A stretch of 64,000 bases of DNA from Chloroflexota bacterium (GTDB taxonomy: Bacteria > Chloroflexota > UBA11872 > VXOZ01), in assembly GCA_965220175.1 (NCBI GenBank), contig OZ244814.1, forward strand, positions 300,992-364,991, written 5' to 3'. Position 1 is the stretch's first letter. Every line of letters starts with the position of its first letter. The notes beneath the pieces are model-generated. The model did not search any database and was not told where the DNA came from. It saw nothing but the letters and a program-made list of their open reading frames with translations. Below are positions 1 to 39,461 of the stretch, piece after piece. The translations under genes and the position numbers were made by a program.

Positions 1-272
1 CCTAATTGGTCCTCGAGCATCGCCGCATCGTCCTGATGCAGCATGGCGGGGGCGCCGGTTTGCTCGCGGTAAAAGTCAACGCAATCGACGTGATCGAAGT
101 GGCGGTGCGTATTGAGTATGTAGCGCAGCGTGAGCTGATTGTCCTGGATTGTCTGCAGCACGTCTTCGCTCATCATGGCGGGATCGATGATCGCCGCGTC
201 TTTGCTCTGCTCGTCCCAGAGCAGATAGACGTTATTGAGGAGCGGCCCCCGCACGAAGGTCTCCACCCTCAT
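1..272 (-). CDS. MBL-fold metallo-hydrolase (partial, N-terminal ~90 aa; gene continues beyond window start)
   Basis: Minus-strand translation from ATG at 272..270 reads MRVETFVRGPLLNNVYLLWDEQSKDAAIIDP...LNTHRHFDHVDCVDFY. It carries the HxHxDH metallo-beta-lactamase signature. The start overlaps the stop of the upstream gene by 4 nt (ATGA). Confidence 0.6.
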   Translation of the reverse strand, partial: MRVETFVRGPLLNNVYLLWDEQSKDAAIIDPAMMSEDVLQTIQDNQLTLRYILNTHRHFDHVDCVDFYREQTGAPAMLHQDDAAMLEDQL

Positions 273-1513
273 GCGGTGGTCTCTTTCTGGCCGGAACCGG
301 CCTTCTCGGTCGCCTCGCTATCCGCCGACGCCTCGACGGTAGCCGGCTCAGCCGCAGACGCCTGCGCTTCCGCGTCTTCCGCGCCAGCTTCTGCCGCGCT
401 CTTCACCTCTGAGTTTGACTGCTCTGCAGCGGCGGTGTCCGGCTCACCCGCCGGGGCGCTGTAGGCTTCAGCGAGGGCAGCAAATTCGGAGACTTCCTTT
501 GCAGCCTCACCTGTGCTAGCTGCCGGCTCTTGCGGTTCTGAAGATTGCGCCGCCTCTGCGGAAGCACTGGTCCCATCCCCGTTTTTTTCAACTGCCGGTT
601 CGGCTGCAACGGGCTCCGGCTTTGGGGGCGGGGGCGGCTTGGCGAACACTAACTCGCACCACGGATCGCCCGCCGTGAGATGGGAGTCCCACTTCACCTC
701 GGCGGCGCGTTCTGCGAGGAATGCCAAGTCATACGCGCCGCACGACTTGCAAAGGGCAACGTCGTCGGTCTCGGCAAAGCTAAACGGGCATTGGCGCATC
801 CGGACGCGGTAGTCTTTCCCGGTTTCGATGATCTGCAAACTGCCGTCGGGCAGCGCATTGCGGTGCATATCCGCCCACGAGCGCACGAGAGTCGCAGTAT
901 CCTGGTTGTCTCCGGTGTTCCTTTCGGCGGCGCGCGCACCGAGATCGCGATAGATGTCCGCCTGCTCCTCGAGCCAGCCCTCGCCAAGCCGCGTCTGGAG
1001 GCTGCGCATGAGTCCTGCAAAGAGGTCTTGCTGGAGCGGTGAACCGCTACCGGTCTGTGACCCCTGGGGCGTCCAGGTGGCGCCGCGCTCGCTCTTCGCC
1101 GGCCGCGCGGGCGTCTGCGCGGCGGCAACCGCTGCCGGCGCGTTGGCTTCCGCACCTACTTGATCGGGGCGTGTGGCACCGGCTTCCTTCGCTGTTTCAT
1201 CAAGACCGCGCTGGATGTCCACGCCGGCGGTCTTTACTTCGCTCTCTACCTTCTCCACGTCCTTCTGTACGTCCTCCGCGGTAGAGCGGACTTCGCCCTG
1301 AATTGAGGAAATCTCGCCGCGGATGGCGTCGATGTCTTCCTGTACGTCGCCGAGCTGATCTTTGAAGACTGCCAGGGCGTCGCCATAGCTCGAACGCAGC
1401 ATGCGGATGAAGCCGGTAAACTGGCGGATCACCCCGGGCAAGCGGTCCGGTCCCAGCAGGACCAGGCCCAGCACCAGGATGATCATAAGTTCCGGCAGGC
1501 CGATGTCAAACAT
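269..1513 (-). CDS. TatA/TatB-like twin-arginine translocase component fused to a long C-terminal extension (Cys-containing domain plus Ala/Glu/Pro-rich tail)
   Basis: N-terminus MFDIGLPELMIILVLGLVLLGPDRLPGVIRQFTGFIR is a TatA/TatB-type TM segment plus amphipathic helix. The 414-aa ORF then continues through a region with CPFSF...CKSCG cysteines and ends in low-complexity A/E/P-rich sequence. Confidence 0.6.
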   Translation of the reverse strand: MFDIGLPELMIILVLGLVLLGPDRLPGVIRQFTGFIRMLRSSYGDALAVFKDQLGDVQEDIDAIRGEISSIQGEVRSTAEDVQKDVEKVESEVKTAGVDIQRGLDETAKEAGATRPDQVGAEANAPAAVAAAQTPARPAKSERGATWTPQGSQTGSGSPLQQDLFAGLMRSLQTRLGEGWLEEQADIYRDLGARAAERNTGDNQDTATLVRSWADMHRNALPDGSLQIIETGKDYRVRMRQCPFSFAETDDVALCKSCGAYDLAFLAERAAEVKWDSHLTAGDPWCELVFAKPPPPPKPEPVAAEPAVEKNGDGTSASAEAAQSSEPQEPAASTGEAAKEVSEFAALAEAYSAPAGEPDTAAAEQSNSEVKSAAEAGAEDAEAQASAAEPATVEASADSEATEKAGSGQKETTA

Positions 1514-1793: not shown

Positions 1794-2084
1794 ATGGCAG
1801 TGCGACAGAGAGTATGGCAACCGGAGGTTTCGTGGCGCGCCTTTCGCAAGGAACTACCCAATGACTGGTGCCTGCGCATCAATGAACGCTACACGGTGCC
1901 GTTCGCCAATGGCTACGTCTTGCAGATAACCCGTGCGGAGCACAATGACGACGGCTGGGAGTGCGCGCTCGAGCGCCGGGGCCGCATCGCGAAGCACCCT
2001 GACTTTCCCTATGGGCCGCAGTTGATCATGGAAGAGACTGAGGTCGATGCCCTGGTTGAGCGTGTCGCGGGCTATCCTAGCTAG
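1794..2084 (+). CDS. hypothetical small protein (96 aa)
   Basis: ORF with a GGGAG-like RBS upstream in a locally lower-GC segment. Composition looks protein-like (W, Y, F, C present). No recognisable domain. Confidence 0.35.
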   Translation: MAVRQRVWQPEVSWRAFRKELPNDWCLRINERYTVPFANGYVLQITRAEHNDDGWECALERRGRIAKHPDFPYGPQLIMEETEVDALVERVAGYPS

Positions 2085-2228
2085 TACGTAACAGCCGTAC
2101 CATAGCAAGGCGGCCAGAGGTTCGCTAGGGTGCATGGGCCGGTTGGATTGTACTCCTCTAAGACCGATGGGGGTCTGCAACTGGAAGCCGGTCTCCCTTT
2201 TGGAAATCGACATGCAAGCGGAAGCGAG

Positions 2229-2324
2229 TCCGTCACTCCGGCGAACGCCGGAGTCCAGGGAAAAGAGCCGGAGAAGATGGATTCCGCGCCCCCGTACGGG
2301 GTCGAGCTTTCGCGGGAATGACGG
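2229..2324. repeat. Family A composite hairpin repeat (TCCGGCGAACGCCGGA module plus GGATTCC...CGCGGGAATGACGG module)
   Basis: Direct sequence match to copies at 11301..11355, 13665..13736, 29988..30452, 35983..36012, 41587..41781 and 58656..58702. It has perfect short inverted repeats around 4-nt loops. Confidence 0.8.
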
Positions 2325-2410
2325 ATTGTGTCGCGCTTGACTTCTGCTGCCGGAGACCTAGGTGCTTCTAAGCCAATCTCAACTCCGCGTGATGCTGAAA
2401 GGAACCGTCC

Positions 2411-3472
2411 GTGCCGATTGTCACCGCTGATGCCTTGCGCCAAATCGGCCGGGAGTTCTTTATTGCCTTAGGCTGTCTTCCTGATGACGCTCAGATTGTT
2501 GCCGACCACCTGGTGCAGTCGAGCCTCTATGGGCACGATTCCCACGGCATTCTGCGCATGTACGAGTATGCGGACGCCGTGAGCGAAGGACGCGTCCACC
2601 CCCAGAATGCGCCCGAGATCGTAAGCGAAAGCCCGTGCACGGCGGTGATCGACGCCAACGACGGCTTTGGACAAGTGGGCGCGACTCTGGCCGCCACCAT
2701 GGCGATCGAAAAGGCGCGGCAACACGGGCTGGCGAGTATCACCTTGCGCAGAGCAAGCCACATCGGCCGGGCGGGAGAATACCCCGCCATGATCGCTCGC
2801 GCCGGACTGATTGGCACGGCCTACGTCAACTTCGGTCGCTTGGGCATTCAGGTGGCGCCCTTTGGCGGCATTGACGGCCGCCTGGCGACGAATCCGCTGG
2901 CTTTCGCCGCGCCCCGCCGCGACGCTCCGCCCATCATGGTGGACATGACGACGAGCACCGTCGCCGACGGCAAGATCCGTTTGGCTACCAATCTCGGGAA
3001 GCCGCTGCCGGAGGGTTGGATCCTTGATGCGGACGGCAAACCCAGCACGGACCCGCACGACTACTTTGCCGAGCCGCGCGGGGCAATCCTGCCGCTGGGC
3101 GGCCCGCTCGGCCATAAGGGCTACGCGCTGTCTATGATGGTGGAACTCTGCGCCGGGGGCCTGAGCGGTCAGGGCATGGCTTCCGGCGACCCGCGAGCGC
3201 CCGCCAATGCCTTCCTGCTTACCGCCTACAACATCGAGCACTTTACGGACATGGAATTCTTCTACGAAGAGGTGGAAGCCCTGGTCGGCCACGTCAAGTC
3301 GAGCCGCACCGCGCCGGGCGTGACGGAGATACTCTTACCCGGCGAGCCGGAGTTTCGCACCGAGCGTGAGCGCAAACAGTCGGGCATCTCCATCGACGAT
3401 ACCACCTGGGATAGGGTCTGCGCCGCGGCGCGTGACATCGGCCTCGATCCAACTTCCTGGGATTTCGCCTGA
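2411..3472 (+). CDS. Ldh_2 family (malate/L-lactate dehydrogenase family 2) NAD(P)H-dependent oxidoreductase, paralog 1
   Basis: GTG start with AAAGGA RBS. Conserved DSHG, HIGRAGEYP, FGGIDGRLATNPLAFAAP and GGPLGHKGYALS blocks typical of the ureidoglycolate / sulfolactate / pyrroline-2-carboxylate reductase family. Its antisense ORF 2468..3292 is judged spurious. Confidence 0.85.
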   Translation: MPIVTADALRQIGREFFIALGCLPDDAQIVADHLVQSSLYGHDSHGILRMYEYADAVSEGRVHPQNAPEIVSESPCTAVIDANDGFGQVGATLAATMAIEKARQHGLASITLRRASHIGRAGEYPAMIARAGLIGTAYVNFGRLGIQVAPFGGIDGRLATNPLAFAAPRRDAPPIMVDMTTSTVADGKIRLATNLGKPLPEGWILDADGKPSTDPHDYFAEPRGAILPLGGPLGHKGYALSMMVELCAGGLSGQGMASGDPRAPANAFLLTAYNIEHFTDMEFFYEEVEALVGHVKSSRTAPGVTEILLPGEPEFRTERERKQSGISIDDTTWDRVCAAARDIGLDPTSWDFA

Positions 3473-3490
3473 TGCCAAGAGGAGCCGCCT

Positions 3491-4555
3491 GTGCCTACCG
3501 TCGCCGCTGACACTTTGCGCCGCATTGGGTACGCCTGCTTCGAGGCCTTGGGCTGCCGTGCGGATGACGCGCGCATAGTCGCCGATCACCTGGTGCAATC
3601 CAACCTCTTCGGCCATGATTCCCACGGTGTAACCCACATTGAACGGTATGGCCGCGCCGTGTGGGAAGAGCGGCGGGTTGATCCGCAAGCCGTGCCGGAA
3701 GTCGTGCGTGAGCACCCTTGTACGGCAGTGGTGGACGCGCATCATGGGTTCGGCCAGGTGGGCGCGACCTTCGCAACCGAGCTCTTGATCAAGAAGGCGC
3801 AGCAGCACGGTGTCGCCAGTGTCGCATTGCGCAACACAAGCCACATTGGCAGGGCCGGCGCGTACCCACTGATGGTGGCGCGGGCCGGCATGATCGGGCT
3901 GGTCTTCGTCAACGCCGGTCGGATGGGTTTTCAGGTCGCGCCGTTCGGCGGCATCGACGGCCGCCTGGGCACAAATCCGCTGGCCTTTGCCGCGCCGCGC
4001 CGCGCACACGCGCCGCTCTTTGTGGACATGAGTTCCTCAACCGTCGCCGACGGCAAGATCTATCTCGCCGCTAATCAGGGCAAGCCGGTGCCTGAGGGCT
4101 GGTTCGTCGACGCGGACGGCAACCCCAGCACCGACCCGCATGCGTACTTTGAAGAACCGCGCGGGGCTGTGCTCCCGCTGGGCGGGCCTCTAGGGCACAA
4201 GGGGTTTGCGTTGAGCATGCTGATGGAGATCTGCGGTGGAGGGATGAGCGGCCAGGGCATGTCTCAAGGCGACATGCGCGTGAGCAGCAACGGCGTACTC
4301 ATGACCGCCTACGACATCGCCCAGATCGGCGATGTGGAGTTCTTCTATGACGAGGTAGAGGCCCTTGCGCGCCACGTCAAGTCAAGCCGCACGGCGCCCG
4401 GCGTAGACGAAATCCTGCTTCCCGGCGAACCGGAATACCGCGCCGAGCGCGAGCGGACACAAGCGGGCATCCCCATTGACGACACCACGTGGGAGAAGCT
4501 CTGCGCGGCTGCGCGGCACCTCGGCTTGGAACCGACTGCCTGGAAACTCTGCTAA
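3491..4555 (+). CDS. Ldh_2 family oxidoreductase, paralog 2
   Basis: GTG start with GAGGAG RBS, 18 nt after paralog 1. Same conserved blocks. About 75% identical to paralog 3 by eye. Confidence 0.85.
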   Translation: MPTVAADTLRRIGYACFEALGCRADDARIVADHLVQSNLFGHDSHGVTHIERYGRAVWEERRVDPQAVPEVVREHPCTAVVDAHHGFGQVGATFATELLIKKAQQHGVASVALRNTSHIGRAGAYPLMVARAGMIGLVFVNAGRMGFQVAPFGGIDGRLGTNPLAFAAPRRAHAPLFVDMSSSTVADGKIYLAANQGKPVPEGWFVDADGNPSTDPHAYFEEPRGAVLPLGGPLGHKGFALSMLMEICGGGMSGQGMSQGDMRVSSNGVLMTAYDIAQIGDVEFFYDEVEALARHVKSSRTAPGVDEILLPGEPEYRAERERTQAGIPIDDTTWEKLCAAARHLGLEPTAWKLC

Positions 4556-4656
4556 GGTGAAGTCGCGAACCTGAGTGGAATGCCGCCTCGTACGCGTCCG
4601 GCCAAGACTAATTTCCTGCTCAGACTTGACTGGTCCAACGCCGAAAGGAGCCGTTT

Positions 4657-5721
4657 GTGCCTACCGTAACCGCTGAAGCCCTGCGCCGCATTGGCTACGC
4701 CTTCTTTGAAGCGCTGGGCTGCCGACCGGATGATGCCCGCATCATTCAGGACCATCTTGTCCAGTCCAATCTCTACGGCCATGACTCCCACGGCGTGGTG
4801 CGCATGGAGCAGTACTGGCACGCCGTGCGGGAAGAGGGTGTGGTTGACCCGCAAGCGGCGCCGGAAGTCGTGCGTGAACACCCGTGCACCGCGGTCGTGG
4901 ACGCGCATCACGGCTTCGGTCAGGTGGGCGCGGTGTTTGCCACGAAGCTCTTGATAGAGAAGGCGCAACAGTACGGCATCGCCAGTGTCTCGCTGCGCAA
5001 TACGAGCCACATCGGCAGAGTGGGCGAGTATCCGCACATGGTCGCGCAGGCCGGCATGATCGGGCTGATTTTTGTCAATGCGGGGAGGCTGGGCTTTCAG
5101 GTCGCGCCCTTTGGCGGTATCGACGGCCGGCTGGGCACGAATCCACTCGCATTTGCCGCGCCGCGGCGCAACGATCCGCCCTTTTTCGTGGACTTGACGA
5201 CGTCCACCGTCGCCGACGGCAAGATCAAGATAGCCGCTAACGAAGGTAAGCCCTTGCCCGAGGGCTGGATTGTCGATGCGGATGGCAACCCCAGCACGGA
5301 TCCCAGCGACTACTGGGACGAGCCGCGCGGGGCTGTGCTGCCGGTGGGCGGCCCTTTGGGACACAAAGGCACTGCGCTGAGCATGCTGAATGAGATCTGC
5401 GGCGGCGGATTGAGCGGACAGGGCATGTCGGCCGGCGACATGCGAGTGGACAGCAACGGCGTGCACATGACCGCCTACGACATCGGGCAGTTTGTGGAGC
5501 CGGAGTTCTTCTATGACGAGATCGATACGCTCATCAGCCACGTGAAAACCAGCCGCCCGGCTGCCGGCGTGGACGAGGTCCTGGTCGCCAGCGAGCCGGA
5601 GTACCGCGCGCAGCGTGAGCGCGAAAAGACGGGCATCCCTATCGACGAAACGACGTGGAGCAAGCTCTGCGACGCTGCCCGCGACCTGGGATTGAAACCG
5701 GATACCTGGGTACTGGCCTAG
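4657..5721 (+). CDS. Ldh_2 family oxidoreductase, paralog 3
   Basis: GTG start with AAGGAG RBS. Same family blocks. The 409-aa antisense ORF 4552..5781 is judged spurious. Confidence 0.85.
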   Translation: MPTVTAEALRRIGYAFFEALGCRPDDARIIQDHLVQSNLYGHDSHGVVRMEQYWHAVREEGVVDPQAAPEVVREHPCTAVVDAHHGFGQVGAVFATKLLIEKAQQYGIASVSLRNTSHIGRVGEYPHMVAQAGMIGLIFVNAGRLGFQVAPFGGIDGRLGTNPLAFAAPRRNDPPFFVDLTTSTVADGKIKIAANEGKPLPEGWIVDADGNPSTDPSDYWDEPRGAVLPVGGPLGHKGTALSMLNEICGGGLSGQGMSAGDMRVDSNGVHMTAYDIGQFVEPEFFYDEIDTLISHVKTSRPAAGVDEVLVASEPEYRAQREREKTGIPIDETTWSKLCDAARDLGLKPDTWVLA

Positions 5722-5803
5722 AACGGAATTGGTAGACTTGGGTCTAGACCGTGGAGAAATGAAATTAGACGTATGAACCAACGTCTAAGGTGGGTCCTCG
5801 GAT

Positions 5804-5900
5804 CGTCATTCTGAGGAGCGGAGCGACGAAGAATCTCGAATCAGGAGCTCTTTAGATTCCACGAACCGTGTTCGACGAACCCCGTTCGACGCTGAGCTTG
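5804..5900. repeat. Intergenic hairpin repeats (family E GTCATTCTGAGGAGCGGAGCGACGAAGAATC plus partial family B CGTTCGACGCTGAGCTTGG)
   Basis: Reverse-complement copy of the family E core at 25491..25523. The family B motif recurs at 8931..8990, 18497..18575, 19849..19986, 27203..27264 and 58753..58810. Confidence 0.6.
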
Positions 5901-5981
5901 GAGTGACAGGAAACGACTCCCTCAACGCTACCAAGTCTATTGCTACTAAGTCCGGCCTAGAAGACTCTTGCGCTAGAAAGG

Positions 5982-7052
5982 ATGCCGGTTGTGCCGACTT
6001 TCACAGCAAATACCTTGCGCCGCATCGGCGAAGAATTCTTGATCGCCCTGGGATGCCGTCCAGCAGACGCGCAGCTTGTGGCCGATCACCTTCTTCAGTC
6101 AAACCTCTTCGGCCATGATTCCCATGGTGTTTTGCGTTTGTATGAATATGCCCGCGCCGTGCATGAAGGACGCCTCGATCCCTTGGGTTCGCCGGAAATC
6201 GTGAGCGAACACGCTTGCACGGCGGTCGTGGACGCGCACGACGGCTTCGGCCACGTGGGCGCGGCTCTGGCAACCAAGCTGGCGATCGAGAAGGCGCGGC
6301 AGCATGGCTTGGCAAGCGTTTCGCTGCGCCGCGCGAGCCACATCGGCCGGGCGGGAGCGTATCCCCTGGTGATGGCCCAGGCAGGCATGCTCGGTGTGGC
6401 CTACGTCAACTCCGGCCGCATGGGATTCCAAGTAGTGCCGTTCGGCGGCATCGACGGTCGCCTTGGCACCAATCCGCTGGCCTTCGCCGCGCCCCGCCGC
6501 GCCGACCCGCCCATCATGGTGGATATGACGACCTGCACCGTTGCCGACGGCAAGATCCGCGTGGCCACCAATCTCGGCAAACCGCTGCCGGAGGGCTGGA
6601 TCATCGATAAGGCAGGCAATCCCAGCACGGACCCGCAAGTGTATTGGGAGGAACCGCGCGGCGGAATCTTACCTCTCGGCGGTCCGCTCGGGCACAAGGG
6701 CTATGCGCTCAGCTTGATGATGGAACTCAGCGCCGGCGGGCTGAGCGGACACGGCATGTCTTCGGGCGACATGCGCTCACCCGGCAACGGTGCGCTGTTC
6801 ACCGCATACGACATCGCCCACTTCACTGACCTGGACTCCTACTACGACGAGGTTGAGGCCATGGCAAGGCACGTCAAGTCAAGCCGTCCCGCGCCGGGCG
6901 TGACTGAGATATTCCTGCCCGGCGAGCCGGAGTTCCGCACGGAGCGCGAGCGTAAGCAAACAGGCATCTCCATTGACGAGACTACATGGGCAAAGCTCTG
7001 CGAATCCGCTCGCGAACTGGGCCTGGATCCTGGCGCTTGGTGGAATCCGTAA
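5982..7052 (+). CDS. Ldh_2 family oxidoreductase, paralog 4
   Basis: Same family blocks. Most similar to paralog 1. The start may be the in-frame GTG at 5991 rather than ATG at 5982. Confidence 0.8.
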   Translation: MPVVPTFTANTLRRIGEEFLIALGCRPADAQLVADHLLQSNLFGHDSHGVLRLYEYARAVHEGRLDPLGSPEIVSEHACTAVVDAHDGFGHVGAALATKLAIEKARQHGLASVSLRRASHIGRAGAYPLVMAQAGMLGVAYVNSGRMGFQVVPFGGIDGRLGTNPLAFAAPRRADPPIMVDMTTCTVADGKIRVATNLGKPLPEGWIIDKAGNPSTDPQVYWEEPRGGILPLGGPLGHKGYALSLMMELSAGGLSGHGMSSGDMRSPGNGALFTAYDIAHFTDLDSYYDEVEAMARHVKSSRPAPGVTEIFLPGEPEFRTERERKQTGISIDETTWAKLCESARELGLDPGAWWNP

Positions 7053-7245: not shown

Positions 7246-7527
7246 ATGGACGCAAAGCAAGCAGTGCAAGAAGCAAAAAACTACATATTGGATCTCTTTG
7301 AAGGCGAAGACATCGAATATGTCGGCCTCGAGGAAGTAGAGTTCGACCACGAATCTGAAGAGTGGAAGGTTACCCTAGGCTTCTCGCGCCCTTGGGATCG
7401 TCCCAAGTCACTTTCGGTTGCGCTGCGCGACGAGCCGCTTAGGCGCTCCTACAAATTAGTTCGTATAGACGACACTACGGGTAAAGTCACATCTGTTAGG
7501 GACCGCGCCCTGGTGACCGCAAGATAG
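7246..7527 (+). CDS. hypothetical acidic small protein (93 aa), candidate partner of downstream PIN nuclease
   Basis: GGAGG RBS. Preceded by a low-GC leader with a TATAAT hexamer at about 7212..7217. Stop is 5 nt before the PIN gene start. No known antitoxin fold recognised. Confidence 0.5.
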   Translation: MDAKQAVQEAKNYILDLFEGEDIEYVGLEEVEFDHESEEWKVTLGFSRPWDRPKSLSVALRDEPLRRSYKLVRIDDTTGKVTSVRDRALVTAR

Positions 7528-7532
7528 GTTCG

Positions 7533-7997
7533 ATGCCGACACCAGGTGTCTTCATCGACACGAACCTCCTATTGCTCCTCGTCGTGGGCAGTGCCGACAA
7601 GGCCATAGTTGCGAAACACAAGCGGCTAAAGGGTTACACGGCAGAGGATTACGATACTCTTCTCGACCTACTCGATCTCTTTCCCCAAGTCCTAGTCACG
7701 CCCCACACGCTCGCGGAGACCTCCAATCTCCTTGCGCAACACAACGATCCCGAGCGAACCCGGCTGTTTGGGCAACTCCGTTTCCTCATCCATGAATGTA
7801 AGGAAGTGGCAATTGCAGGTACCGTCGCTGCAAACAACAGTGCGTTCCCGCAGCTTGGACTGACAGACTCGGCTCTATTGGAGGTGGTAGCGCCTGAATC
7901 TCCGCTGCTCACTGTCGACTGGGGGCTATTCCAGCAGGCATTGGCAAGAGGATCGGACACGGCGGTCAATTTCACGGATTTTCGGGGACTCGATTGA
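7533..7997 (+). CDS. PIN-domain ribonuclease (VapC-like)
   Basis: N-terminal VFIDTNLLLLLVVG plus downstream conserved acidic residues (LAETSN, LTDSAL, TVDWG) match the four-acidic-residue PIN active site. Confidence 0.7.
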   Translation: MPTPGVFIDTNLLLLLVVGSADKAIVAKHKRLKGYTAEDYDTLLDLLDLFPQVLVTPHTLAETSNLLAQHNDPERTRLFGQLRFLIHECKEVAIAGTVAANNSAFPQLGLTDSALLEVVAPESPLLTVDWGLFQQALARGSDTAVNFTDFRGLD

Positions 7998-9074: not shown

Positions 9075-9383
9075 ATGGACACAACGTATCGTGGTACTCT
9101 AGCTAAAGGATTACCGAGGAGGCACCCAACCGTGACACAAGAGCGCCGAGAGGACCAACTCGCCCGCTTTCAGCGGGACGCCGACTACTTTGAGTCGCAC
9201 TACGAGCAACTCCTGCGAGAGTACCCCGAGCAGTGGGTTGCAGTCTTCAATCAGACCGTCGTGGGAACCGCCTCGGATTTCGATGCACTGCTTGAAACTC
9301 TGGATCAAGCTGGAATACCTATCGAGAGAGCCTTGATCGAGCGCGTTACCGCCGAGGAAGATATCCTCATTCTGCATACATGA
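9075..9383 (+). CDS. DUF5678-like small protein, translationally coupled to downstream aspartic protease
   Basis: C-terminal EQWVAVFNQTVVGTASDFDALLETL resembles DUF5678-type small proteins (assignment from memory, uncertain). The more likely start is in-frame GTG at 9132, preceded by a GAGGAGG RBS at 9116..9122. The stop overlaps the next gene (ATGA at 9380). Confidence 0.5.
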   Translation: MDTTYRGTLAKGLPRRHPTVTQERREDQLARFQRDADYFESHYEQLLREYPEQWVAVFNQTVVGTASDFDALLETLDQAGIPIERALIERVTAEEDILILHT

Positions 9384-9844
9384 TACGCGGCTACTTCCTC
9401 TCCCGTGGCGGCATACGTCGCCCGTTCGTGTCGGCCCGCTTCCAGTTCCCCTCTTTGGACAACCAGATTCTAGAAACACGACTGCTGGTCGACTCTGGTG
9501 CTGACAGCACTGTTCTTGCCCCTCGGGACAGTAAACGGTTGATGCGGCAAGTTGGGCTTGAATTTAGCACTTTGACCGCGACAAAGCCGGGGGCAGGCGT
9601 GGGCGGAAAAGTCAAGATGCGCACGCTAGAGGCTATCATGACCATCCCGCCCTACTCGATACCGCTAACTCTGACCCTATTGGAGCCAGAACCAGGAGAC
9701 ATATCTCCGCTCCCTTCCTTGCTGGGGCGCGACATTCTTTCCCACTTTGCCCTTTTCATGCAAGAACGAACCGGGCAGCTTCTCCTACTCGAACCGGAGG
9801 AAACCCGCGCGGCCGGTGTATTCGAGCGCATTCCCTCAACGTAG
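9380..9844 (+). CDS. retropepsin-like (clan AA) aspartic peptidase
   Basis: LLVDSGADSTVL is the hydrophobic-hydrophobic-D-S/T-G-A active-site motif of retroviral-type aspartyl proteases. Size 154 aa, consistent with a dimerising single-domain protease. Confidence 0.6.
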   Translation: MIRGYFLSRGGIRRPFVSARFQFPSLDNQILETRLLVDSGADSTVLAPRDSKRLMRQVGLEFSTLTATKPGAGVGGKVKMRTLEAIMTIPPYSIPLTLTLLEPEPGDISPLPSLLGRDILSHFALFMQERTGQLLLLEPEETRAAGVFERIPST

Positions 9845-14626: not shown

Positions 14627-15403
14627 TTACCCTTGCTCGTGCTCGCGGCGCATGTCATCGAGCTTCGCGATAGTCTCGATGATGTACTCGGCCTGGCGCG
14701 CCACACCTTGCTTGGTGCGTTCTTCGCCGGCGTCGCGGTCGGCCTTGGTGGGAAAGCCCCACACCCCGCTCGGCGTGTAGTACTCTGTCGGGATCATGTC
14801 CACGTACTCGGAGCCCAGGTCCGGCGACGAGTCGACCACCTTCTCGGTACGCATCAGTTCGGGATAGGCGTACATGAGCCGGGAGGTCTCGCTCTCGCCC
14901 GAGTGCCGGTCTTTGCCGGGTCCCGAGCCCCCCGCGCCGACCGGCGCGCCCCACATCACCAGGAAGTCCGGGTCCCACATGTTGAGCTCGCGAATCGTGG
15001 GCTTCAGGATCCAGTTGCCGCCGTGGGAACTGGTGACGATCATGCGCTTGAAGCCCTGGCGCTTCAGGCAGGCGGCGGTGTCCTCGAGGATAGCGGCGAC
15101 GGTATTGGGCTTGAGGCTCAGGGTGCCCTTGTAGTTGAGGAACTCGCTCGATGTGCCGATGGGAATTGGCGGCAGAAGATAGACGATGAGCCCGCGCCGG
15201 GCCAGCTCCCGCGCCAGTAACCGGCTGCCGGCGAGACCGAGCAGCCAGTCGGTGCCGAGCGGCATGTGGTACGAGTGCTGCTCGATGGCGCCGATGCAGA
15301 AGAGCGCCGTATCGCAGCCGCTCTCCTCCACCTCCTCGAAGGTGGAAGCCCAACTCAAGAAATCCTCTTCCTGCATGTCGTCAAACCAGTGATGTTCGCT
15401 CAT
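14627..15403 (-). CDS. creatininase-family amidohydrolase
   Basis: ALFCIGAIEQHSYHMPLGTD and SSHGGN motifs typical of the creatinine amidohydrolase family. Likely start MSEHHW. Confidence 0.8.
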   Translation of the reverse strand: MSEHHWFDDMQEEDFLSWASTFEEVEESGCDTALFCIGAIEQHSYHMPLGTDWLLGLAGSRLLARELARRGLIVYLLPPIPIGTSSEFLNYKGTLSLKPNTVAAILEDTAACLKRQGFKRMIVTSSHGGNWILKPTIRELNMWDPDFLVMWGAPVGAGGSGPGKDRHSGESETSRLMYAYPELMRTEKVVDSSPDLGSEYVDMIPTEYYTPSGVWGFPTKADRDAGEERTKQGVARQAEYIIETIAKLDDMRREHEQG

Positions 15404-15767
15404 AGTTCCTTCTTTCAAATGCTATGTGCCCTCGCGATATACGGTGGACTTGATCTATACTTTGCTGCGCATACCCTCTGTGACAACAGTAATCTAACGG
15501 GGCGGAAGCCAGACTCAGCCTATCCCATGGTGAATCTGAAAACTCACTCCTTGAGAACGCTGCACGGCCATCTCGCACAATGTCACCGATTTGTGGTAGT
15601 CACGCAATGGCGCGACAAAGAACGTCAAACCTGCTAGGCAGAAATCCTCTCGCCCCGCCTTGTCCCGAATGGAAAGTAAGCAATCCTCTCGCTTATTGCC
15701 GAGATTTCTCTAACGCATGTCGAGGCAATGATCAGTAATCTGTCGTCCCAATTGGCGGGGATCGTGC

Positions 15768-16972: not shown

Positions 16973-18154
16973 CTATGCCTCTTGAGGACGCGGCCCGTAC
17001 CAACGACGCGCGGACCGTCCCGCATGGTTATACACCTCGCCGGCGCGTATCGTGTAGGCTGCCTCCAGGTGCTGCTCGCCGGTGCGCGTATTGCCCTCGG
17101 CATCCAGCATGGGGTACGGTCCGTCCACGAGGCGCAGCGCCGCGATATCGGCGACGCCTCCGATGCGCAGGTGCCCCAGAGAGTCTGCCATATCGATCGC
17201 GGCCGCCGCGTTGCGCGTAGTGCGCGCCACCACGTCGGGGACGTCCCGCCCCAGGTAGAGGAATTTCGACATTACGTCGGGCAGGCTCTGCGCGGTGGCG
17301 TGGGACGAATAATTGTGGAGATCGGTGCTGATGGTATCGGGCAGGAAACCATCTGCCAGGGCATCCCGCGCCACTTCAAATGAGAAACTGCCTTGTCCGT
17401 GACCCACGTCAAAGGCGATGCCGTTCTGTTGCGCGGCGCGGACTTCCGGCAGCACCGTGCGCTTCTGCTGATCCAGAATTAGTCTCCCTCTGCCCGTAAA
17501 GCAGTGCGTAACGATGTCACCGGGTTTCAGGATGGGCAGAATCTCCGACATGAATTGCTCGCTATCGGAAATGTGCACCATCATGCGCGTGCCGGTGGCA
17601 TCGCGCACCGCCGCCGCGCGGCGCAGCGGTTCTAAGCCGTTGGGACCGCAAATCGGTTTTGCGACACGCACTTTCACGCCTATCGCCACGTCGCGGTTGG
17701 CCTCTATGGTCTTGATCGCGTCCTCCACGCCGCAATAGGCGAGATTGAGATTCTCGCCCACGCGCATGTCAGTGATGCCGATGCTCGATATGTTGACGAA
17801 GGCATACGTCCGCGTGCGCGCTTGCCCAGCGATGAAGTGACGGAAGCCGGTAAAATTCGCCCACCCCGCGCTGCCCGCGTCCGCCGCCGTGGTGACGCCG
17901 GTGGTCAGACACGTTGGGTCGGGCAGCACGCCAAGATCGGTGCCGCCCCAGTAAAGGTGCGTGTGCAGGTCTATCAGTCCCGGCGTGACAAAATGGTCGG
18001 CTACGTCGAGAACAAGCCATGCGTCATCGGGAGCAAGGTCTTCCTCCAGCGCGGTGATGCGGCCGTGCTTGGTGCCGATGTCTAACTCGGCATCAATGCC
18101 CTGCGCGGGGTCGAGGACGCGCCCTCCCTTGAGCAATACGTCAAAGGTTGCCAT
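16973..18154 (-). CDS. amidohydrolase-family metal-dependent hydrolase / deacetylase
   Basis: DLHTHL metal-binding HxH motif near the N-terminus. Overall resembles dihydroorotase-like amidohydrolases. Confidence 0.75.
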   Translation of the reverse strand: MATFDVLLKGGRVLDPAQGIDAELDIGTKHGRITALEEDLAPDDAWLVLDVADHFVTPGLIDLHTHLYWGGTDLGVLPDPTCLTTGVTTAADAGSAGWANFTGFRHFIAGQARTRTYAFVNISSIGITDMRVGENLNLAYCGVEDAIKTIEANRDVAIGVKVRVAKPICGPNGLEPLRRAAAVRDATGTRMMVHISDSEQFMSEILPILKPGDIVTHCFTGRGRLILDQQKRTVLPEVRAAQQNGIAFDVGHGQGSFSFEVARDALADGFLPDTISTDLHNYSSHATAQSLPDVMSKFLYLGRDVPDVVARTTRNAAAAIDMADSLGHLRIGGVADIAALRLVDGPYPMLDAEGNTRTGEQHLEAAYTIRAGEVYNHAGRSARRWYGPRPQEA

Positions 18155-20080: not shown

Positions 20081-21028
20081 TCAGCCCTCCGCAAATTCCT
20101 CTCGCTTGAGCTGGTCCGGGCCCGCGCCGTACCAGGTGAGCTGCTTGGCGATGCTCCACCAGGGATTCCAGGCCTCCACGCGGACGCGCCGCAACGAAAA
20201 GAGCGTCTCGGCTGATTGATGCACGCCGGGGCCGATTGCCACTGCCGCTTCGTAGCCCGCCTCCCGCACTACCTGCCGGATCTGCTCATTCTGGTAGCCA
20301 CGCGGATAGTCGAAGTAGCGCGTCGTCTTGCCAAGCCGCTCCTCCAGGAGTTGTTTGGAAATGACAACCTCCGCCAGCACCGCGCCCCAGTCCGTCTTTG
20401 CAAGCAGGGGCAGATCAGCATGATTCAGGGTGTGCGACTCCACCTCCATGCCAAAGTCCGCGATGGCGCCAAGTTGGTCCCAGTCCATGTAGCCCTCTTG
20501 GCGCTCATGGAATCCCGGCATTACAAAGAACGTCGCCGGTATCTTGTACTGCTTGAGCACGGGAAAGACCGCGTCGTACTGTATCCGCCAACCGTCGTCG
20601 AACGAAAGCACAATCGGCATGGCGGGCAGTTCTTCTTCTCCCAGTAGTCCCTTTACCGCATTGTGCAAGGAGAGCGGCCGGTAACCGGCAGTAAGCATGG
20701 CGACGAGTTGCGCTTCGAAGACTTTTGCCGCCGTGGCGCGATGGTACATGAGGATCGGTAAGACGACCGGATTCTCCGGCAGGGCCGGTTCAGGCTGGTA
20801 GGGCGGCTGCCAGTACACCGGCTGGGCCGGGGCAGGGCTTCCAATCTGTGGAACCGGCTTTTGAACAGGCGCAGCGGGCTGATCACGGACAAGACTAATG
20901 TCATCGTCGCCGGTGTCAGCCAGAGCCGTCACAGGCAGCAAGCCCGCCATCGGGACCGCCACCGCAGCCTGCAGCAGCCGCCGGAGCACATCCCGACGCG
21001 AACTGCCAGCGCCTACGCCATTGCCCAT
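20081..21028 (-). CDS. secreted polysaccharide deacetylase (NodB domain) with Tat signal
   Basis: SRRDVLRRLL twin-arginine signal. SFDDGW and HTLNHADL NodB motifs. Confidence 0.8.
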   Translation of the reverse strand: MGNGVGAGSSRRDVLRRLLQAAVAVPMAGLLPVTALADTGDDDISLVRDQPAAPVQKPVPQIGSPAPAQPVYWQPPYQPEPALPENPVVLPILMYHRATAAKVFEAQLVAMLTAGYRPLSLHNAVKGLLGEEELPAMPIVLSFDDGWRIQYDAVFPVLKQYKIPATFFVMPGFHERQEGYMDWDQLGAIADFGMEVESHTLNHADLPLLAKTDWGAVLAEVVISKQLLEERLGKTTRYFDYPRGYQNEQIRQVVREAGYEAAVAIGPGVHQSAETLFSLRRVRVEAWNPWWSIAKQLTWYGAGPDQLKREEFAEG

Positions 21029-25314: not shown

Positions 25315-25748
25315 GATTTTTGCATTCAGACCCGGCTGTGCAGGCAGCCGCCTCGTTTGCTTCAAATAGCCGTTGTCAGTTTGGCAGGTATTCTCTGTAG
25401 CGGGATCAGTCGATTCACGTTTGATTTCCTCATCGGATTAGGCTTCATGTCATTCCGAGCGTAGCGAGGAATCTAAAATGCCCCCAATTCTAGATTCTTC
25501 GTCGCTGCGCTCCTCAGAATGACATTTGCGAGTTGGCTCAGATCTAGGACGATCACTTGTCTTACCTTTGGCTACGCCAAGCCCAAGTCTGCAAATTCCG
25601 ATCTGAAGTTCCCTTGACACCTGCCGTATTTCGCTGCAACCTATAAGGCAATATCGGCGTGAGGTGCGCAAGCAGCGCGTGGGGGACTTTGAGAATCCAG
25701 TCAAGCAGTGCGTATCTCAATTGGAGAGCATGTAGAGGAGCAATTCTC

Positions 25749-27386: not shown

Positions 27387-28745
27387 TCAGGCAGTAGATT
27401 CCGTTTCTTCTCCCTCCTCCGATTGAGCCTTTTCGCTCCGGTATTCCTCCAAGCATTCAATGACAATCCTGTTGATCTCAGGGAACTGGCCTTGGGCGAA
27501 ATCATCGAGTCTGCCTGAAATGGTCCGGCGAATCCTCTCCTCGTCCCACCAGTGCTCGTAGTCCGAACTCTCCAGAATGCCCCGCTTAAAGGGCAGTTCG
27601 ATGTAGTCTTCGGAATACCCTGGCAGCGGGCCTTTGAACATCCCGGGGTCTGCCTTGACACGATCGAGTAGCCTTTTCTTCAGATCCTCAGGGCCTCTCT
27701 TGGCAAAGACAAGGAACAGGCCCGCCGCGTTGTTCGTGACACGAACCTGAAAAAGCAGTAGGCTGTGAGGCCAACAGTCAATCTTGAGCTCCTCGTATCT
27801 GTCCCAATCGGTGGAGACAAACCGGGCGTACGGACGATTGCTCGTGCCTTTCTTCCATTCCTTGTGCTTGCTGACCTCCTCGCCCACCATGTGGTATCCC
27901 TCGCTCACGTAGTTGGGCTCGTACCGGTCCCGGTGCTCGATTATGAGATCGATGGCCTTCTTATGTTTCCGGTAGATTTTACGGGCCAGCTCGTGTACAT
28001 CGTCGCTGACTTCGGGCACGATATTTCTCCTTAATGTGATCGCGTATTGACGCAGCGCGGCGGCAACGTCCTGGTGAACAGCGGCGCCCTTTGCCTCGAT
28101 TGTCCGGTCAAGTATTCGCCGAATGCGCGAGTAGTCAAGCGTAGTCCAATGGTCCCATTCCGTTGCGTTTTCGGGCATGTCCCCTCTCGGCGTGAGAAAC
28201 ACCAGGCGCATCGTGTAGTCTGGGTAATGCTCCTTGAGCGCCTGCCGGTAGAAGGCCAGTTGATTGCCGCTTTCCGGCGACCACACTTTGTTTTCCACCG
28301 CGCACAGGAATCCGGCTTGCTCGTTGTGGATGCAGATGTCCAACCGGCCGCTTTCCCCGTCAAGTTCGAGGTTTTGCTCCCGGCACACCGTGGTGCTAAT
28401 CCGGGCGCCGGCGCGGGCGGCGCCGATTTCGACAAGGAACTCCCTGAGGAAATAATCGTCAAGGCCGTGATTGTCTCCAGGGCGCAGCAGCCAGGCGAGG
28501 AAATCGGAATGAAATTTTTCGATATCAACCAATCCCAAGGTCCTGAAGACGTCCACCTCCTCTTGCCACTTTGGAATCATAGCCGCTAACCGCGCCAGAT
28601 CCTCTCCGTCCTCCGCCAAGCGCCGCAAGGACCGGTGGGCCGCTTCATTCTCAAGAATGAAGAGTTGCTCAAGGTCTCCTAGGTCGTTCTGAAGCTCTTC
28701 TAAAGCGCCAGTCAGCTCGGAGCTTAGACTGCCGTCAGTCGCCAT
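27387..28745 (-). CDS. PD-(D/E)XK nuclease superfamily protein (about 450 aa) in a locally low-GC patch
   Basis: LDICIHNEQAGFLCAVENKVW contains a D...E-x-K restriction-endonuclease-like motif in the N-terminal half. Long C-terminal region of unknown function. Start taken at MATDGS (the ORF could start 29 codons earlier). Confidence 0.55.
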   Translation of the reverse strand: MATDGSLSSELTGALEELQNDLGDLEQLFILENEAAHRSLRRLAEDGEDLARLAAMIPKWQEEVDVFRTLGLVDIEKFHSDFLAWLLRPGDNHGLDDYFLREFLVEIGAARAGARISTTVCREQNLELDGESGRLDICIHNEQAGFLCAVENKVWSPESGNQLAFYRQALKEHYPDYTMRLVFLTPRGDMPENATEWDHWTTLDYSRIRRILDRTIEAKGAAVHQDVAAALRQYAITLRRNIVPEVSDDVHELARKIYRKHKKAIDLIIEHRDRYEPNYVSEGYHMVGEEVSKHKEWKKGTSNRPYARFVSTDWDRYEELKIDCWPHSLLLFQVRVTNNAAGLFLVFAKRGPEDLKKRLLDRVKADPGMFKGPLPGYSEDYIELPFKRGILESSDYEHWWDEERIRRTISGRLDDFAQGQFPEINRIVIECLEEYRSEKAQSEEGEETESTA

Positions 28746-28995
28746 AGCATTCTCATTTGTAAAGAGATAAATACGTGCGAGGAAGGATGTGACGAGTCTG
28801 CCAAATCCCCGTTTCAGGCAGGAGTATATCACTCACGCACAGTGAGCGGAGGAATTCCCGTGATCTGAACTTACCAGTTTTAGGCAATAGTGCGCCGGTC
28901 GTTGGTCACGACCCGGAGACCCGCTGGCATTTGACCTGCGAGCGGTGCTCAACCTGAAACGGCTGGCTCCCATTGCGTGGTTTGCAAAGAGGCTC

Positions 28996-34413: not shown

Positions 34414-34488
34414 CGGCTGGCGCCGGATGGTATACACGTATTGAGCCACCTACAGGCGCGAGCGTCGAGATCATCAGGAGTTCTCGCC

Positions 34489-38938: not shown

Positions 38939-39067
38939 TGGTAACCATCGTGTTCTTTCATTCAGCCTCGCAATTCTGCACTTCGCGGAAGATCGGCTTT
39001 CGCAGCAGTGTACCACTCGGCGCAGGGCGACCGAATGGCGTAGCGACCGCCAAATGCCAAGTCATCG

Positions 39068-39379
39068 TCAAGTCTCATAGATGGGCGTTCTCGTGGCCTC
39101 GACTGCTTCCATGAAGTATGGGTTCCTGATGGCCGACTCGACTACCAAGTCCACCGGCTTGTTGAAAAGCCGTTGCAGAGCTTCCAGCAAACCAAAGTAC
39201 GTGTTGGCGTAGACGCCGGGTGGCAGCGGTTCGAACTCCACCACAAAGTCGAGGTCGCCTGCCGCCGCCAAGTCCCGGCCGATCGCGGCTGAACCAAACA
39301 GGGCAAGCCGCCGGACACGGTAGCGGCGGCAGAGCCGTTCCACATCGGCAGCCTGTTTGCTAATGACCGGGTGAGGCAC
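39068..39379 (-). CDS. minimal nucleotidyltransferase (MNT, Pol-beta superfamily) domain protein
   Basis: RLALFGSAAIGRDLAAAGDLDFVVEF is the GSxxxG...DxD nucleotidyltransferase signature. Probable GTG start at 39379 preceded by GGGAGGG. The longer ORF to 39595 overlaps the purH fragment and is judged an artefact. Confidence 0.6.
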   Translation of the reverse strand: MPHPVISKQAADVERLCRRYRVRRLALFGSAAIGRDLAAAGDLDFVVEFEPLPPGVYANTYFGLLEALQRLFNKPVDLVVESAIRNPYFMEAVEATRTPIYET

Positions 39380-39461
39380 GTCGCCCTCCCGCCTGTCTAG
39401 GCAAGAAAATAACTTTAGTTGCTCCTGCTCACCGTCATCTTGGTCAGGTGCACGGCAGGTG

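What the first reader, a model, noticed from the sequence alone, without database searches (positions are those of the whole stretch)
2411..7052. Four tandem Ldh_2-family oxidoreductase paralogs with nested A-B-B'-A' similarity
Four consecutive same-strand genes of 353, 354, 354 and 356 aa all carry the Ldh_2 blocks DSHG, HIGRAGEYP, FGGIDGRLxTNPLAFAAP and GGPLGHKGxALS.

By eye, copies 2 and 3 are most alike (about 75% identical). Copies 1 and 4 are most alike to each other. This implies successive duplications rather than a single amplification.

The spacers grow along the array (18, 101, 260 bp). The last spacer carries hairpin repeats.

Ldh_2 enzymes reduce 2-oxo/imino acids (ureidoglycolate, sulfolactate, delta1-pyrroline/piperideine-2-carboxylate, 2,3-diketogulonate). 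Nearby genes are all deacylases/amidohydrolases: AstE/AspA, M20 peptidase, polysaccharide deacetylases, creatininase, amidohydrolase.

Together this points to a catabolic island with diversified substrate specificities, not gene-dosage amplification.
Basis: partly seen in the sequence, partly recalled or inferred. Interest (0 to 1): 0.55.

Follow-up and report, generated by a model that had tools for sequence, protein, structure and literature searches.

The report
Ancient four-gene Ldh_2 dehydrogenase paralog array
A marine-symbiont Chloroflexota chromosome carries four old, individually conserved tandem copies of an Ldh_2-type 2-oxoacid/2-hydroxyacid dehydrogenase, always preceded by a small orphan gene; this is a real but fairly ordinary case of enzyme-family diversification whose substrates remain unknown.

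Summary
Four same-strand Ldh_2 (PF02615) genes lie at 2411-7052. Pairwise identities are c2-c3 76.6%, c1-c4 72.5% and 65-69% for the rest. The spacers are 18, 101 and 260 bp.

The array is not an artefact or a recent amplification. Synonymous sites between copies are saturated. The same array of 2-4 copies, in the same order, occurs in about 17 related Chloroflexota genomes. Copies cluster by position rather than by genome, in four orthogroups, A, B, B' and A'. Each orthogroup is under strong purifying selection (dN/dS 0.06-0.15).

Catalytic and core cofactor residues are invariant. Substrate-shell and adenine-pocket positions differ between orthogroups and are fixed within them. That supports divergence of substrate or cofactor use.

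The "catabolic island" reading is not supported. The cited deacylases lie 7-29 kb away among housekeeping genes and are not syntenic in relatives.

New points:
- A strongly conserved 96-aa orphan gene (1794-2084) heads the array in every relative examined.
- The hairpin-rich third spacer is a window-specific 239-bp MITE-like insertion with a 9-bp target duplication.
- Copy 4 probably starts at GTG 5991, giving 353 aa.

No characterised enzyme is closer than about 37% identity (E. coli HcxB), so the substrates are unknown. I file it as a new member of a known kind, of modest interest.

The parts
1794..2084 (+). orf96: a conserved orphan 96-aa gene that precedes the Ldh_2 array.
   Evidence: It is present directly upstream of the array in all 16 related loci that include the upstream flank, at 84-94% identity. 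dN/dS is 0.05-0.09 with dS 0.5-1.3. There is no Pfam match. Only 2-4 homolog clusters were found in 5.8 and 1.8 billion proteins. The AF2 model has pLDDT 77, with no significant PDB fold match.
2085..2410 (+). Leader between orf96 and copy 1. It is variable in length among relatives and holds REP-like palindromes. Only the last ~25 nt (RBS region) are conserved.
   Evidence: Alignment with L005-L008. No Rfam family in the window.
2411..3472 (+). Ldh_2 copy 1, orthogroup A (353 aa).
   Evidence: Pfam Ldh_2 E 1.1e-106. Orthogroup assignment. dN/dS 0.08-0.13 against orthologs. Pocket signature: R49, Y/F141, A265.
3491..4555 (+). Ldh_2 copy 2, orthogroup B (354 aa), 18 nt after copy 1.
   Evidence: Pfam E 4.5e-110. 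dN/dS 0.10-0.15. The essential Arg48 position of AllD is His in 14 of 15 orthologs, with Arg three residues later. AllD Tyr226 is replaced by Phe.
4556..4656 (+). B-B' spacer. Its length is conserved at 101-104 nt in 12 genomes.
   Evidence: No conserved RNA structure was found (4 invariant pairs, no covariation).
4657..5721 (+). Ldh_2 copy 3, orthogroup B' (354 aa). It is the most conserved copy and the only one present in every relative.
   Evidence: Pfam E 5.5e-106. dN/dS 0.055-0.09. The adenine pocket is remodelled: AllD Y226 to T, and P305-G306 to A-S.
5715..5962 (.). A 239-bp MITE-like insertion (5724-5962) with its 9-bp target-site duplication GGCCTAGAA (5715-5723 and 5954-5962). It has imperfect terminal inverted repeats and an internal REP-like unit.
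   Evidence: Repeats. The empty site is seen in L005, L006 and L009. The fold is -82 kcal/mol, z -2.0. The internal 59 nt recur at window 25465-25523 and in L011 and L017.
5991..7052 (+). Ldh_2 copy 4, orthogroup A' (353 aa from GTG 5991; the ORF is open from ATG 5982).
   Evidence: Pfam E 6e-108. Start position. dN/dS 0.07-0.13. Pocket signature: R49, S141, G265.
269..1513 (-). Divergently transcribed 414-aa gene with a TatA/B-like N-terminal helix. It is a syntenic neighbour of orf96 plus the array in all relatives. It is context, and is not shown to be functionally linked.
   Evidence: Pfam TatA_B_E at 20.6 bits, just below the cut-off. Synteny.

Best explanation
The locus is an old, lineage-specific tandem family of four Ldh_2-type NAD(P)H-dependent oxidoreductases. 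This family interconverts 2-oxo (or cyclic imino) acids and 2-hydroxy (or amino) acids.

A single ancestral gene duplicated within this Chloroflexota lineage into an A type and a B type. Each type duplicated again, giving the order A-B-B'-A'. That order requires at least one non-adjacent duplication, or a larger duplication followed by loss (inference).

All four copies keep the full catalytic machinery: the His general base and the His/Ser/Tyr/Thr/Pro/Asp/Lys cofactor set. Each has fixed its own residues in three places: the substrate-binding helix, the lid loop and the adenine pocket. They most likely act as separate homodimeric enzymes on different but chemically related 2-oxo/2-hydroxy acids, or with different cofactor preference.

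They are probably expressed together with the upstream orphan gene orf96 as one unit.

Shown: family membership, age and order of the duplications, purifying selection, orthogroup-specific pocket residues, and synteny with orf96.

Inferred: different substrates, independent homodimers, co-transcription, and any role for orf96. The substrates themselves are unknown.
For: - Family membership: Pfam Ldh_2 end-to-end matches. The best solved relatives are E. coli YbiC/HcxB, P. horikoshii MDH and M. jannaschii sulfolactate DH.
- Age: paralog dS 0.9-1.5 with dN/dS 0.16-0.24.
- Conservation: arrays of 4, 3 or 2 copies in related Chloroflexota genomes, single copies in outgroups.
- Phylogeny: copies cluster by position. 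A+A'+A0 has 94% bootstrap, B+B' 97%, B 93% and A' 87%. The array clade is monophyletic against 66 outside homologs in 30 of 30 bootstraps.
- Selection: ortholog dN/dS 0.055-0.15 for every copy.
- Active site, mapped on E. coli AllD (PMC3527362). S43, H44, Y52, H116, T156, P158, D174 and K224 are invariant.
- Pocket positions differ by orthogroup:
  - R48 is H in B.
  - S140 is Y/F in A, S in A' and A in B and B'.
  - R259 is A in A, G in A' and S in B and B'.
  - Y226 is Y in A and A', F in B and T in B'.
  - P305-G306 is A-S in B'.
- Enrichment: orthogroup-specific columns are enriched within 2 residues of known active or cofactor sites (9 of 27 against 57 of 349, Fisher p 0.019).
- Independence: single copies are lost in some genomes. 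A is missing in L004 and L020, A' in L010, both in L019, and B is frameshifted in L011. This argues for separable functions.
- orf96: always adjacent to the array and under strong constraint.
Against: - No substrate can be assigned. Identity to any characterised enzyme is at most 37%. All NCBIfam equivalog cut-offs are missed.
- There is no conserved pathway partner, either at this locus or next to the single-copy homologs in other phyla.
- Pocket mapping is by sequence alignment to AllD at about 30% identity, not by structure. The enrichment test is modest (p about 0.02).
- Co-transcription is not shown. No promoters or terminators were informative. The orf96-to-copy-1 gap is 100-330 bp and variable.
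- NJ resolution among A, A' and the A-type copies of three-copy genomes is weak (28-64%).
Confidence: 0.7

Rival explanations
1. The four products assemble into obligate heteromers, for example A-type with B-type subunits. The array would then encode one multi-subunit enzyme rather than four enzymes, and orf96 might be a further subunit.
For: - Gene order and tight spacing are conserved (18-21 nt between A and B in the closest relatives).
- Ldh_2 enzymes are dimers. The interface buries about 25% of the monomer surface, and the cofactor adenine lies at the subunit interface (PMC3527362).
- B and B' differ exactly in adenine-pocket residues.
Against: - Different copies are missing in different genomes, and one genome has only B and B'.
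- In one genome the array is split into A+B and B'+A' about 170 kb apart (L011 and L018).
- Every copy keeps a complete catalytic set.
- No heteromeric Ldh_2 enzyme turned up in the papers I read. This was not an exhaustive search.
Confidence: 0.12
2. The copies are isozymes for the same reaction. They would be kept for dosage or for condition-specific kinetics or regulation, without a change of substrate.
For: 168 of 353 columns are invariant across all orthogroups, and the catalytic residues are identical. All four score alike against every characterised subfamily model.
Against: - The divergence is old, with 23-35% amino-acid differences.
- Fixed orthogroup-specific changes fall at first-shell positions. 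One is the Arg that is essential in AllD (R48A is inactive; PMC3527362).
- There are also fixed changes in the lid loop and the adenine pocket.
- Dosage amplifications are normally near-identical and unstable. These copies are stable across species.
Confidence: 0.13
3. One reading: the array is the redox module of a catabolic island formed with the nearby deacylases and amidohydrolases.
For: Such genes exist in the window:
- creatininase 14627-15418
- amidohydrolase 16973-18154
- polysaccharide deacetylases 20081-21028 and 33397-34413
- M20 peptidase 34441-35811
- AstE/AspA 36126-37112
.
Against: - They are 7.6-29 kb from the array and mostly on the other strand.
- They are interleaved with UDG, a GHMP kinase, a nucleotidyltransferase, methyltransferases, PBP1, citrate synthase, a nuclease and two IS elements.
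- Relatives keep the array with different downstream genes: an aldo-keto reductase and an aldolase-SDR fusion, or Amidohydro_2 and MFS, or DHDPS.
Confidence: 0.04
4. An assembly duplication artefact or a very recent amplification.
For: None beyond the tandem layout.
Against: - DNA identity between copies is only 69-77%, and third positions are 46-59% identical.
- The same four orthogroups occur in independent assemblies, including complete 3.3-3.7 Mb chromosomes.
Confidence: 0.01

Closest known systems
E. coli HcxB (YbiC), hydroxycarboxylate dehydrogenase B; PDB 2G8Y; NCBIfam NF007504
   Same: It is the best-scoring characterised relative (PDB E 1.3e-64; NF007504 273-287 bits). It has the same fold family, the same catalytic His/Ser/Tyr/Lys set, and the same LLPGE...R.ER C-terminal motif. 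Like the homologs here, it sits alone without pathway partners. From my own knowledge, it is described as a broad NADPH-preferring 2-oxoacid reductase (2-oxoglutarate, phenylpyruvate, 4-hydroxyphenylpyruvate).
   Different: It is only 35-37% identical and the window proteins score below the equivalog cut-off of 336 bits. It is single-copy in E. coli. Its substrate-helix residues differ (Met at the AllD-R48 position, against Arg or His here).
E. coli AllD, (S)-ureidoglycolate dehydrogenase; PDB 4H8A and 4FJU
   Same: Same family. It was used here as the structural and mutational reference. H116, H44, S43, Y52, T156, P158, D174 and K224 are conserved in all four copies.
   Different: It is 29-31% identical. 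TIGR03175 scores 150-171 bits against a cut-off of 496. The AllD-specific substrate residues S140 and D141 are Y/S/A and G here, and the M251 loop is deleted. The window genes are therefore not ureidoglycolate dehydrogenases.
M. jannaschii ComC, (R)-sulfolactate dehydrogenase; PDB 2X06; NF040650
   Same: Same family, and the third-best solved relative (E 2.7e-48).
   Different: The score is 200-210 bits against a cut-off of 500. No sulfonate-pathway genes are nearby.
Tandem paralog expansions of catabolic enzyme families in marine Chloroflexota (general pattern, from my own knowledge of SAR202 genomics)
   Same: A lineage-specific multiplication of one oxidoreductase family with divergent pockets, in a heterotroph living on complex organic matter.
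   Different: I found no paper describing an Ldh_2 array of this kind or the orf96 gene. Whether this lineage belongs to SAR202 was not determined.

Membership tests
Ldh_2 / type-2 malate-lactate dehydrogenase superfamily (PF02615) | Full-length match to the family HMM above the gathering score. | tested here: met
   355-368 bits against 38.8, covering profile positions 1-332 of 333, for all four copies.
Ldh_2 / type-2 malate-lactate dehydrogenase superfamily (PF02615) | The conserved catalytic and cofactor residues defined in AllD: H44, H116, T156, P158, D174, K224, G306. | tested here: met
   All are invariant in all orthogroups, except that G306 is Ser in B' (16 of 17) (PMC3527362).
Ldh_2 / type-2 malate-lactate dehydrogenase superfamily (PF02615) | NAD(P)H-dependent oxidoreductase activity as a homodimer. 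| not testable with these tools
   Needs purified protein.
HcxB/YbiC equivalog (NF007504) | Score at or above the curated cut-off of 336 bits. | tested here: not met
   273-287 bits; 35-37% identity.
Ureidoglycolate dehydrogenase AllD (TIGR03175 / NF011599) | Score at or above the cut-off (496 / 356 bits), and the AllD substrate residues R48, S140 and D141. | tested here: not met
   150-175 bits. S140 is Y/F, S or A, and D141 is G in all copies.
L-sulfolactate dehydrogenase ComC (NF040650) | Score at or above the cut-off of 500 bits. | tested here: not met
   200-210 bits.
2,3-diketo-L-gulonate reductase DlgD/YiaK (NF009750) | Score at or above the cut-off of 316 bits. | tested here: not met
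   117-138 bits.
Pyr2C/Pip2C reductase (DpkA type) | Close similarity to DpkA, and the Arg-Arg pair that binds the 2'-phosphate of NADPH. | tested here: inconclusive
   PDB 1WTJ and 2CWH match only at E 4.5e-34, which is weaker than HcxB, MDH or ComC. The residues aligned with the AllD equivalents of that pair are P-E, with an R..R.R cluster 3-8 residues later. No DpkA sequence was aligned directly.
MITE-like non-autonomous insertion (spacer 3) | Target-site duplication flanking the element, and an empty site in relatives. | tested here: met
   A 9-bp GGCCTAGAA repeat on both sides. L005, L006 and L009 lack the 239 bp and carry a single copy of the 9-mer (one mismatch in L005).
MITE-like non-autonomous insertion (spacer 3) | Terminal inverted repeats, and multiple copies in the genome. 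| tested here: inconclusive
   The inverted repeats are imperfect (15 nt at 80%, with a 9-nt perfect core). No second full copy was found in the 64-kb window or in JGI metagenome contigs. Only the internal REP-like unit recurs. The rest of the genome is not available.

The most novel reading that the evidence does not exclude
orf96 plus the Ldh_2 array could be a dedicated module specific to this symbiont lineage. In this reading the orphan protein is a new accessory subunit or regulator. The four dehydrogenases would work as a coupled set, for example as heteromers, or as opposed-specificity pairs that racemise or trans-hydrogenate a family of host-derived 2-hydroxy/2-oxo acids. The recently assigned Ldh_2-family malate-lactate transhydrogenase (PMC13034625) is a precedent for that kind of chemistry. 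The alternative is four independent reductases.
Probability: 0.12. Interest if true: 0.55.

Novelty: new member of a known kind. Interest (0 to 1): 0.3.

Why it matters
Most members of the Ldh_2 family have no known substrate. A set of four closely linked paralogs is a compact natural experiment on how specificity evolves in this fold. Their catalytic residues are identical, and the helix, lid and adenine-pocket residues have each diverged in a fixed way.

The array also marks a clade of uncultured Chloroflexota whose record titles and co-retrieved taxa suggest sponge and coral hosts. It could point to a class of 2-oxo/2-hydroxy acids important in that niche. The always-linked orphan gene orf96 is a clean target for assigning a function to an unknown protein.

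None of this overturns current understanding, so the interest is modest.

Tried and rejected
- Rfam scan of the whole window: no family matched.
- Conserved RNA structure in the length-conserved B-B' spacer: only 4 invariant pairs and no covariation.
- Promoter and terminator scan: no more sites than in shuffles.
- Gene conversion or mosaicism between paralogs. Sliding-window identities show that the B' C-terminus diverges fast. Partitioned bootstraps give no supported alternative topology: A+B grouping scored 0-6%. Copies cluster by position rather than by genome. Concerted evolution is therefore rejected.
- Function of orf96:
  - no Pfam match;
  - only near-identical homologs plus one at 61% identity, and the three weak multi-stretch hits look spurious, with no Pfam match above a gathering score;
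  - Foldseek against PDB found nothing at E below 1;
  - the AlphaFold-database library was unavailable.
- Gene context of single-copy homologs at 58-60% identity in other phyla: no shared neighbours.
- Exact look-up of the window's copy 1 in the assembly index: not on record.
- Search for further copies of the spacer-3 element's end: none in the window or in JGI metagenome contigs.
- Literature searches for Ldh_2 arrays in sponge Chloroflexota: nothing relevant.
- Mapping divergent residues in three dimensions: not possible, because model coordinates are not exposed. Sequence mapping onto AllD was used instead.


Full report
**Observation**

The window has four consecutive + strand ORFs at 2411-3472, 3491-4555, 4657-5721 and 5982-7052. 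Each matches Pfam Ldh_2 (PF02615) over essentially the whole profile, with E 1e-106 to 5e-110.

Pairwise protein identities are 76.6% for c2-c3, 72.5% for c1-c4 and 65-69% for the other pairs. DNA identities are 69-77%, with third positions only 46-59% identical. The spacers are 18, 101 and 260 bp.

One correction concerns copy 4. In relatives it starts at the codon equivalent to GTG 5991, which is ATG in L009. The ATG at 5982 arises from a window-specific G-to-T change inside the Shine-Dalgarno sequence. The protein is most likely 353 aa.

**Not an artefact, and not recent**

Synonymous divergence between the copies is saturated (dS 0.9-1.5), with dN/dS 0.16-0.24.

A database search with copy 2 returned hits named only as Chloroflexi or Chloroflexota MAG proteins, and several of them shared contigs. 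Fetching those contigs, plus a scan of one genome per species, gave related loci from about 17 Chloroflexota genomes. Many are complete chromosomes of 3.3-3.7 Mb.

The record titles include Plut_88905 and SB0662_bin_44. The co-retrieved outgroups include Poribacteria, Latescibacterota and Ca. Spongiisocius. Together these suggest sponge or coral holobionts. That is my inference and was not verified.

An HMM scan of all loci gave these copy numbers:
- Four copies in the window and five other genomes.
- Three copies in ten genomes.
- Two copies in one genome.
- One genome with the array split into A+B (B frameshifted) and B'+A' about 170 kb apart.
- Single copies in all outgroup phyla.

**Phylogeny**

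In a bootstrapped NJ tree the copies group by position in the array, not by genome. This gives orthogroups A (position 1), B, B' and A' (position 4). Bootstrap support is 94% for the A-type clade, 97% for B+B', 93% for B and 87% for A'.

I then added the 120 best database homologs. The array clade holds exactly the 54 closest proteins and is monophyletic in 30 of 30 bootstraps against 66 outside homologs of at most 61% identity. The family therefore arose by duplication inside this lineage. The duplications predate the divergence of the sampled species, and there has been no concerted evolution.

Sliding-window and partitioned analyses gave no supported sign of gene conversion. The C-terminal third of B' simply evolves faster.

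The nested order cannot come from simple duplication of a two-gene unit, which would give A-B-A'-B'. It needs a non-adjacent duplication, or a larger duplication followed by loss (inference). Resolution among A, A' and the single A-type copy of three-copy genomes is weak (28-64%), so the timing of the A/A' split is uncertain.

**Are all four functional, and do they differ?**

Ortholog comparisons give dN/dS of 0.055-0.15 for every copy.

I aligned all copies with E. coli AllD. Its active site has been defined by structures and mutagenesis (PMC3527362). The mapping shows the following.
- The general base H116, and S43, H44, Y52, T156, P158, D174 and K224, are invariant in all orthogroups.
- Positions lining the substrate and the adenine moiety differ between orthogroups and are fixed within them.

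| AllD position | A | A' | B | B' |
|---|---|---|---|---|
| R48 (R48A is inactive in AllD) | R | R | H in 14 of 15, with R three residues later | R |
| S140 | Y/F | S | A | A |
| R259 | A | G | S | S |
| Y226 (adenine pocket) | Y | Y | F | T |
| P305-G306 | P-G | P-G | P-G | A-S |

The lid loop also has four distinct signatures.

Of 353 columns, 168 are invariant and 27 are conserved within each orthogroup but different between them. Nine of those 27 lie within two residues of known active or cofactor sites, against 57 of 349 positions overall (Fisher p 0.019). This fits specialised substrate or cofactor use. It rests on a sequence alignment at about 30% identity, not on structures.

**Which enzyme?**

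None of the characterised subfamilies fits. The NCBIfam equivalog models score as follows.

| Model | Score (bits) | Cut-off (bits) |
|---|---|---|
| HcxB/YbiC | 273-287 | 336 |
| Sulfolactate dehydrogenase | 200-210 | 500 |
| AllD | 150-175 | 356-496 |
| Diketogulonate reductase | 117-138 | 316 |

Identity to E. coli HcxB is 35-37% and to AllD 29-31%. The AllD-specific residues S140 and D141 are absent.

The characterised functions of the family are listed in PMC13034625. They are malate, lactate, sulfolactate, ureidoglycolate and hydroxycarboxylate dehydrogenases, Pyr2C reductase, diketogulonate reductase and malate-lactate transhydrogenase. These define the reaction type but not the substrate.

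Single-copy homologs at 58-60% identity in other phyla stand alone with unrelated neighbours. Gene context gives no help.

**Neighbourhood**

- creatininase 14627-15418
- amidohydrolase 16973-18154
- polysaccharide deacetylases 20081-21028 and 33397-34413
- M20 peptidase 34441-35811
- AstE/AspA 36126-37112

They lie 7.6-29 kb from the array. Between them and the array are a uracil-DNA glycosylase, a GHMP kinase, a nucleotidyltransferase, methyltransferases, PBP1, citrate synthase, a nuclease and two IS elements. The rest of the window is ordinary chromosome, with FtsZ, ParA-like, MnmG, PurE/K and ThiE.

Relatives keep the array but have different downstream genes. The catabolic-island reading is not supported.

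**What is conserved next to the array**

This orf96 precedes the array in all 16 related loci that include the upstream flank, at 84-94% identity. It has a good Shine-Dalgarno sequence. Its dN/dS is 0.05-0.09 with saturated dS, and about 40 residues in its core are nearly invariant.

It has no Pfam match and essentially no homologs outside this lineage. Its AF2 model (pLDDT 77) has no significant solved neighbour. Its role is unknown. Co-transcription with the array is an inference from linkage.

**Spacers**

The third spacer is 23-35 bp in most four-copy relatives. In the window it contains a 239-bp insertion (5724-5962) bounded by a 9-bp duplication, GGCCTAGAA. The first copy of the 9-mer includes the stop codon of copy 3.

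The insertion has imperfect terminal inverted repeats and a strongly folding interior. Its internal unit of about 45-59 nt recurs at 25465-25523 and in related genomes. No second full copy was found. It is a recent MITE-like insertion, not a feature of the array.

The B-B' spacer keeps a length of 101-104 nt in 12 genomes, while the other spacers range from 18 to about 800 nt. It shows no conserved RNA structure. This is unexplained.

**Verdict**

The evolutionary part of the interpretation, successive old duplications and diversification rather than dosage, is supported. The island part is not.

The locus is a new, lineage-specific member set of a known enzyme family with unknown substrates. 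It comes with a tightly linked orphan gene. Interest is modest.

Noticed in passing
window 1794-2084 (+): A 96-aa orphan gene (orf96) under strong purifying selection always sits directly upstream of the Ldh_2 array in related genomes. It has no family, no homologs outside the lineage and no solved fold neighbour.
   Followed up: yes
window 5715-5962: A 239-bp MITE-like insertion with a 9-bp target duplication lies between copies 3 and 4 and is absent from the closest relatives. Its internal REP-like unit (about 45-59 nt, GTCATTCTGAGGAGCG.AGCGACGAAGAATC) recurs at window 25465-25523 and in L011 and L017.
   Followed up: yes
window 4556-4656 and the equivalent spacers in 11 relatives: The spacer between copies B and B' keeps a length of 101-104 nt across genomes, although all other spacers vary widely. 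No conserved RNA structure or obvious promoter was found.
   Followed up: partly
window 7246-7527 (+) and 7533-7997 (+): A tight pair of small genes (93 aa and 154 aa). The second begins VFIDTNLLL, which looks like a PIN-domain start. The 154-aa gene is conserved downstream of the array only in the closest relatives, and the 93-aa partner precedes it in the two of those loci with gene calls (L002, L003). There is no Pfam match. It may be a toxin-antitoxin pair.
   Followed up: partly
L011 3238-5377 and L018 8905-11056 (both from OZ242329.1): In one related genome the array is split into orf96+A+B and B'+A' about 170 kb apart. Copy B is read in two frames, which is either an apparent frameshift or a long-read error.
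   Followed up: partly
window 2085-2410: The leader between orf96 and copy 1 holds palindromic REP-like sequence (GGATTCC...GCGGGAATGACGGA) and varies from about 100 to 330 nt among relatives. Only the last ~25 nt before the start codon are conserved.
   Followed up: partly
window 32156-33295 (+) and 41803-42879 (-): Two transposase genes, an IS481-like rve integrase and an IS110-family gene. Related genomes have a DDE_Tnp_1 transposase directly beside the array: upstream in L004, which lacks copy A, and downstream in L001.
   Followed up: no
window 37196-39016 (-) and 39068-39595 (-): An AAA_15/AAA_21 ATPase next to a small nucleotidyltransferase-domain (NTP_transf_2) gene. A PD-(D/E)XK nuclease family protein lies at 27387-28832. 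These may be defence or toxin-antitoxin related.
   Followed up: no
window 9075-9383 (+) and 9380-9844 (+): An overlapping pair: a DUF5678 protein and a retropepsin-like aspartyl protease domain protein (weak Pfam matches).
   Followed up: no
window 269-1513 (-): A 414-aa protein with a TatA/B-like N-terminal helix, a long acidic low-complexity region and a Cys-rich segment. It is syntenic with orf96 and the array in all relatives.
   Followed up: partly
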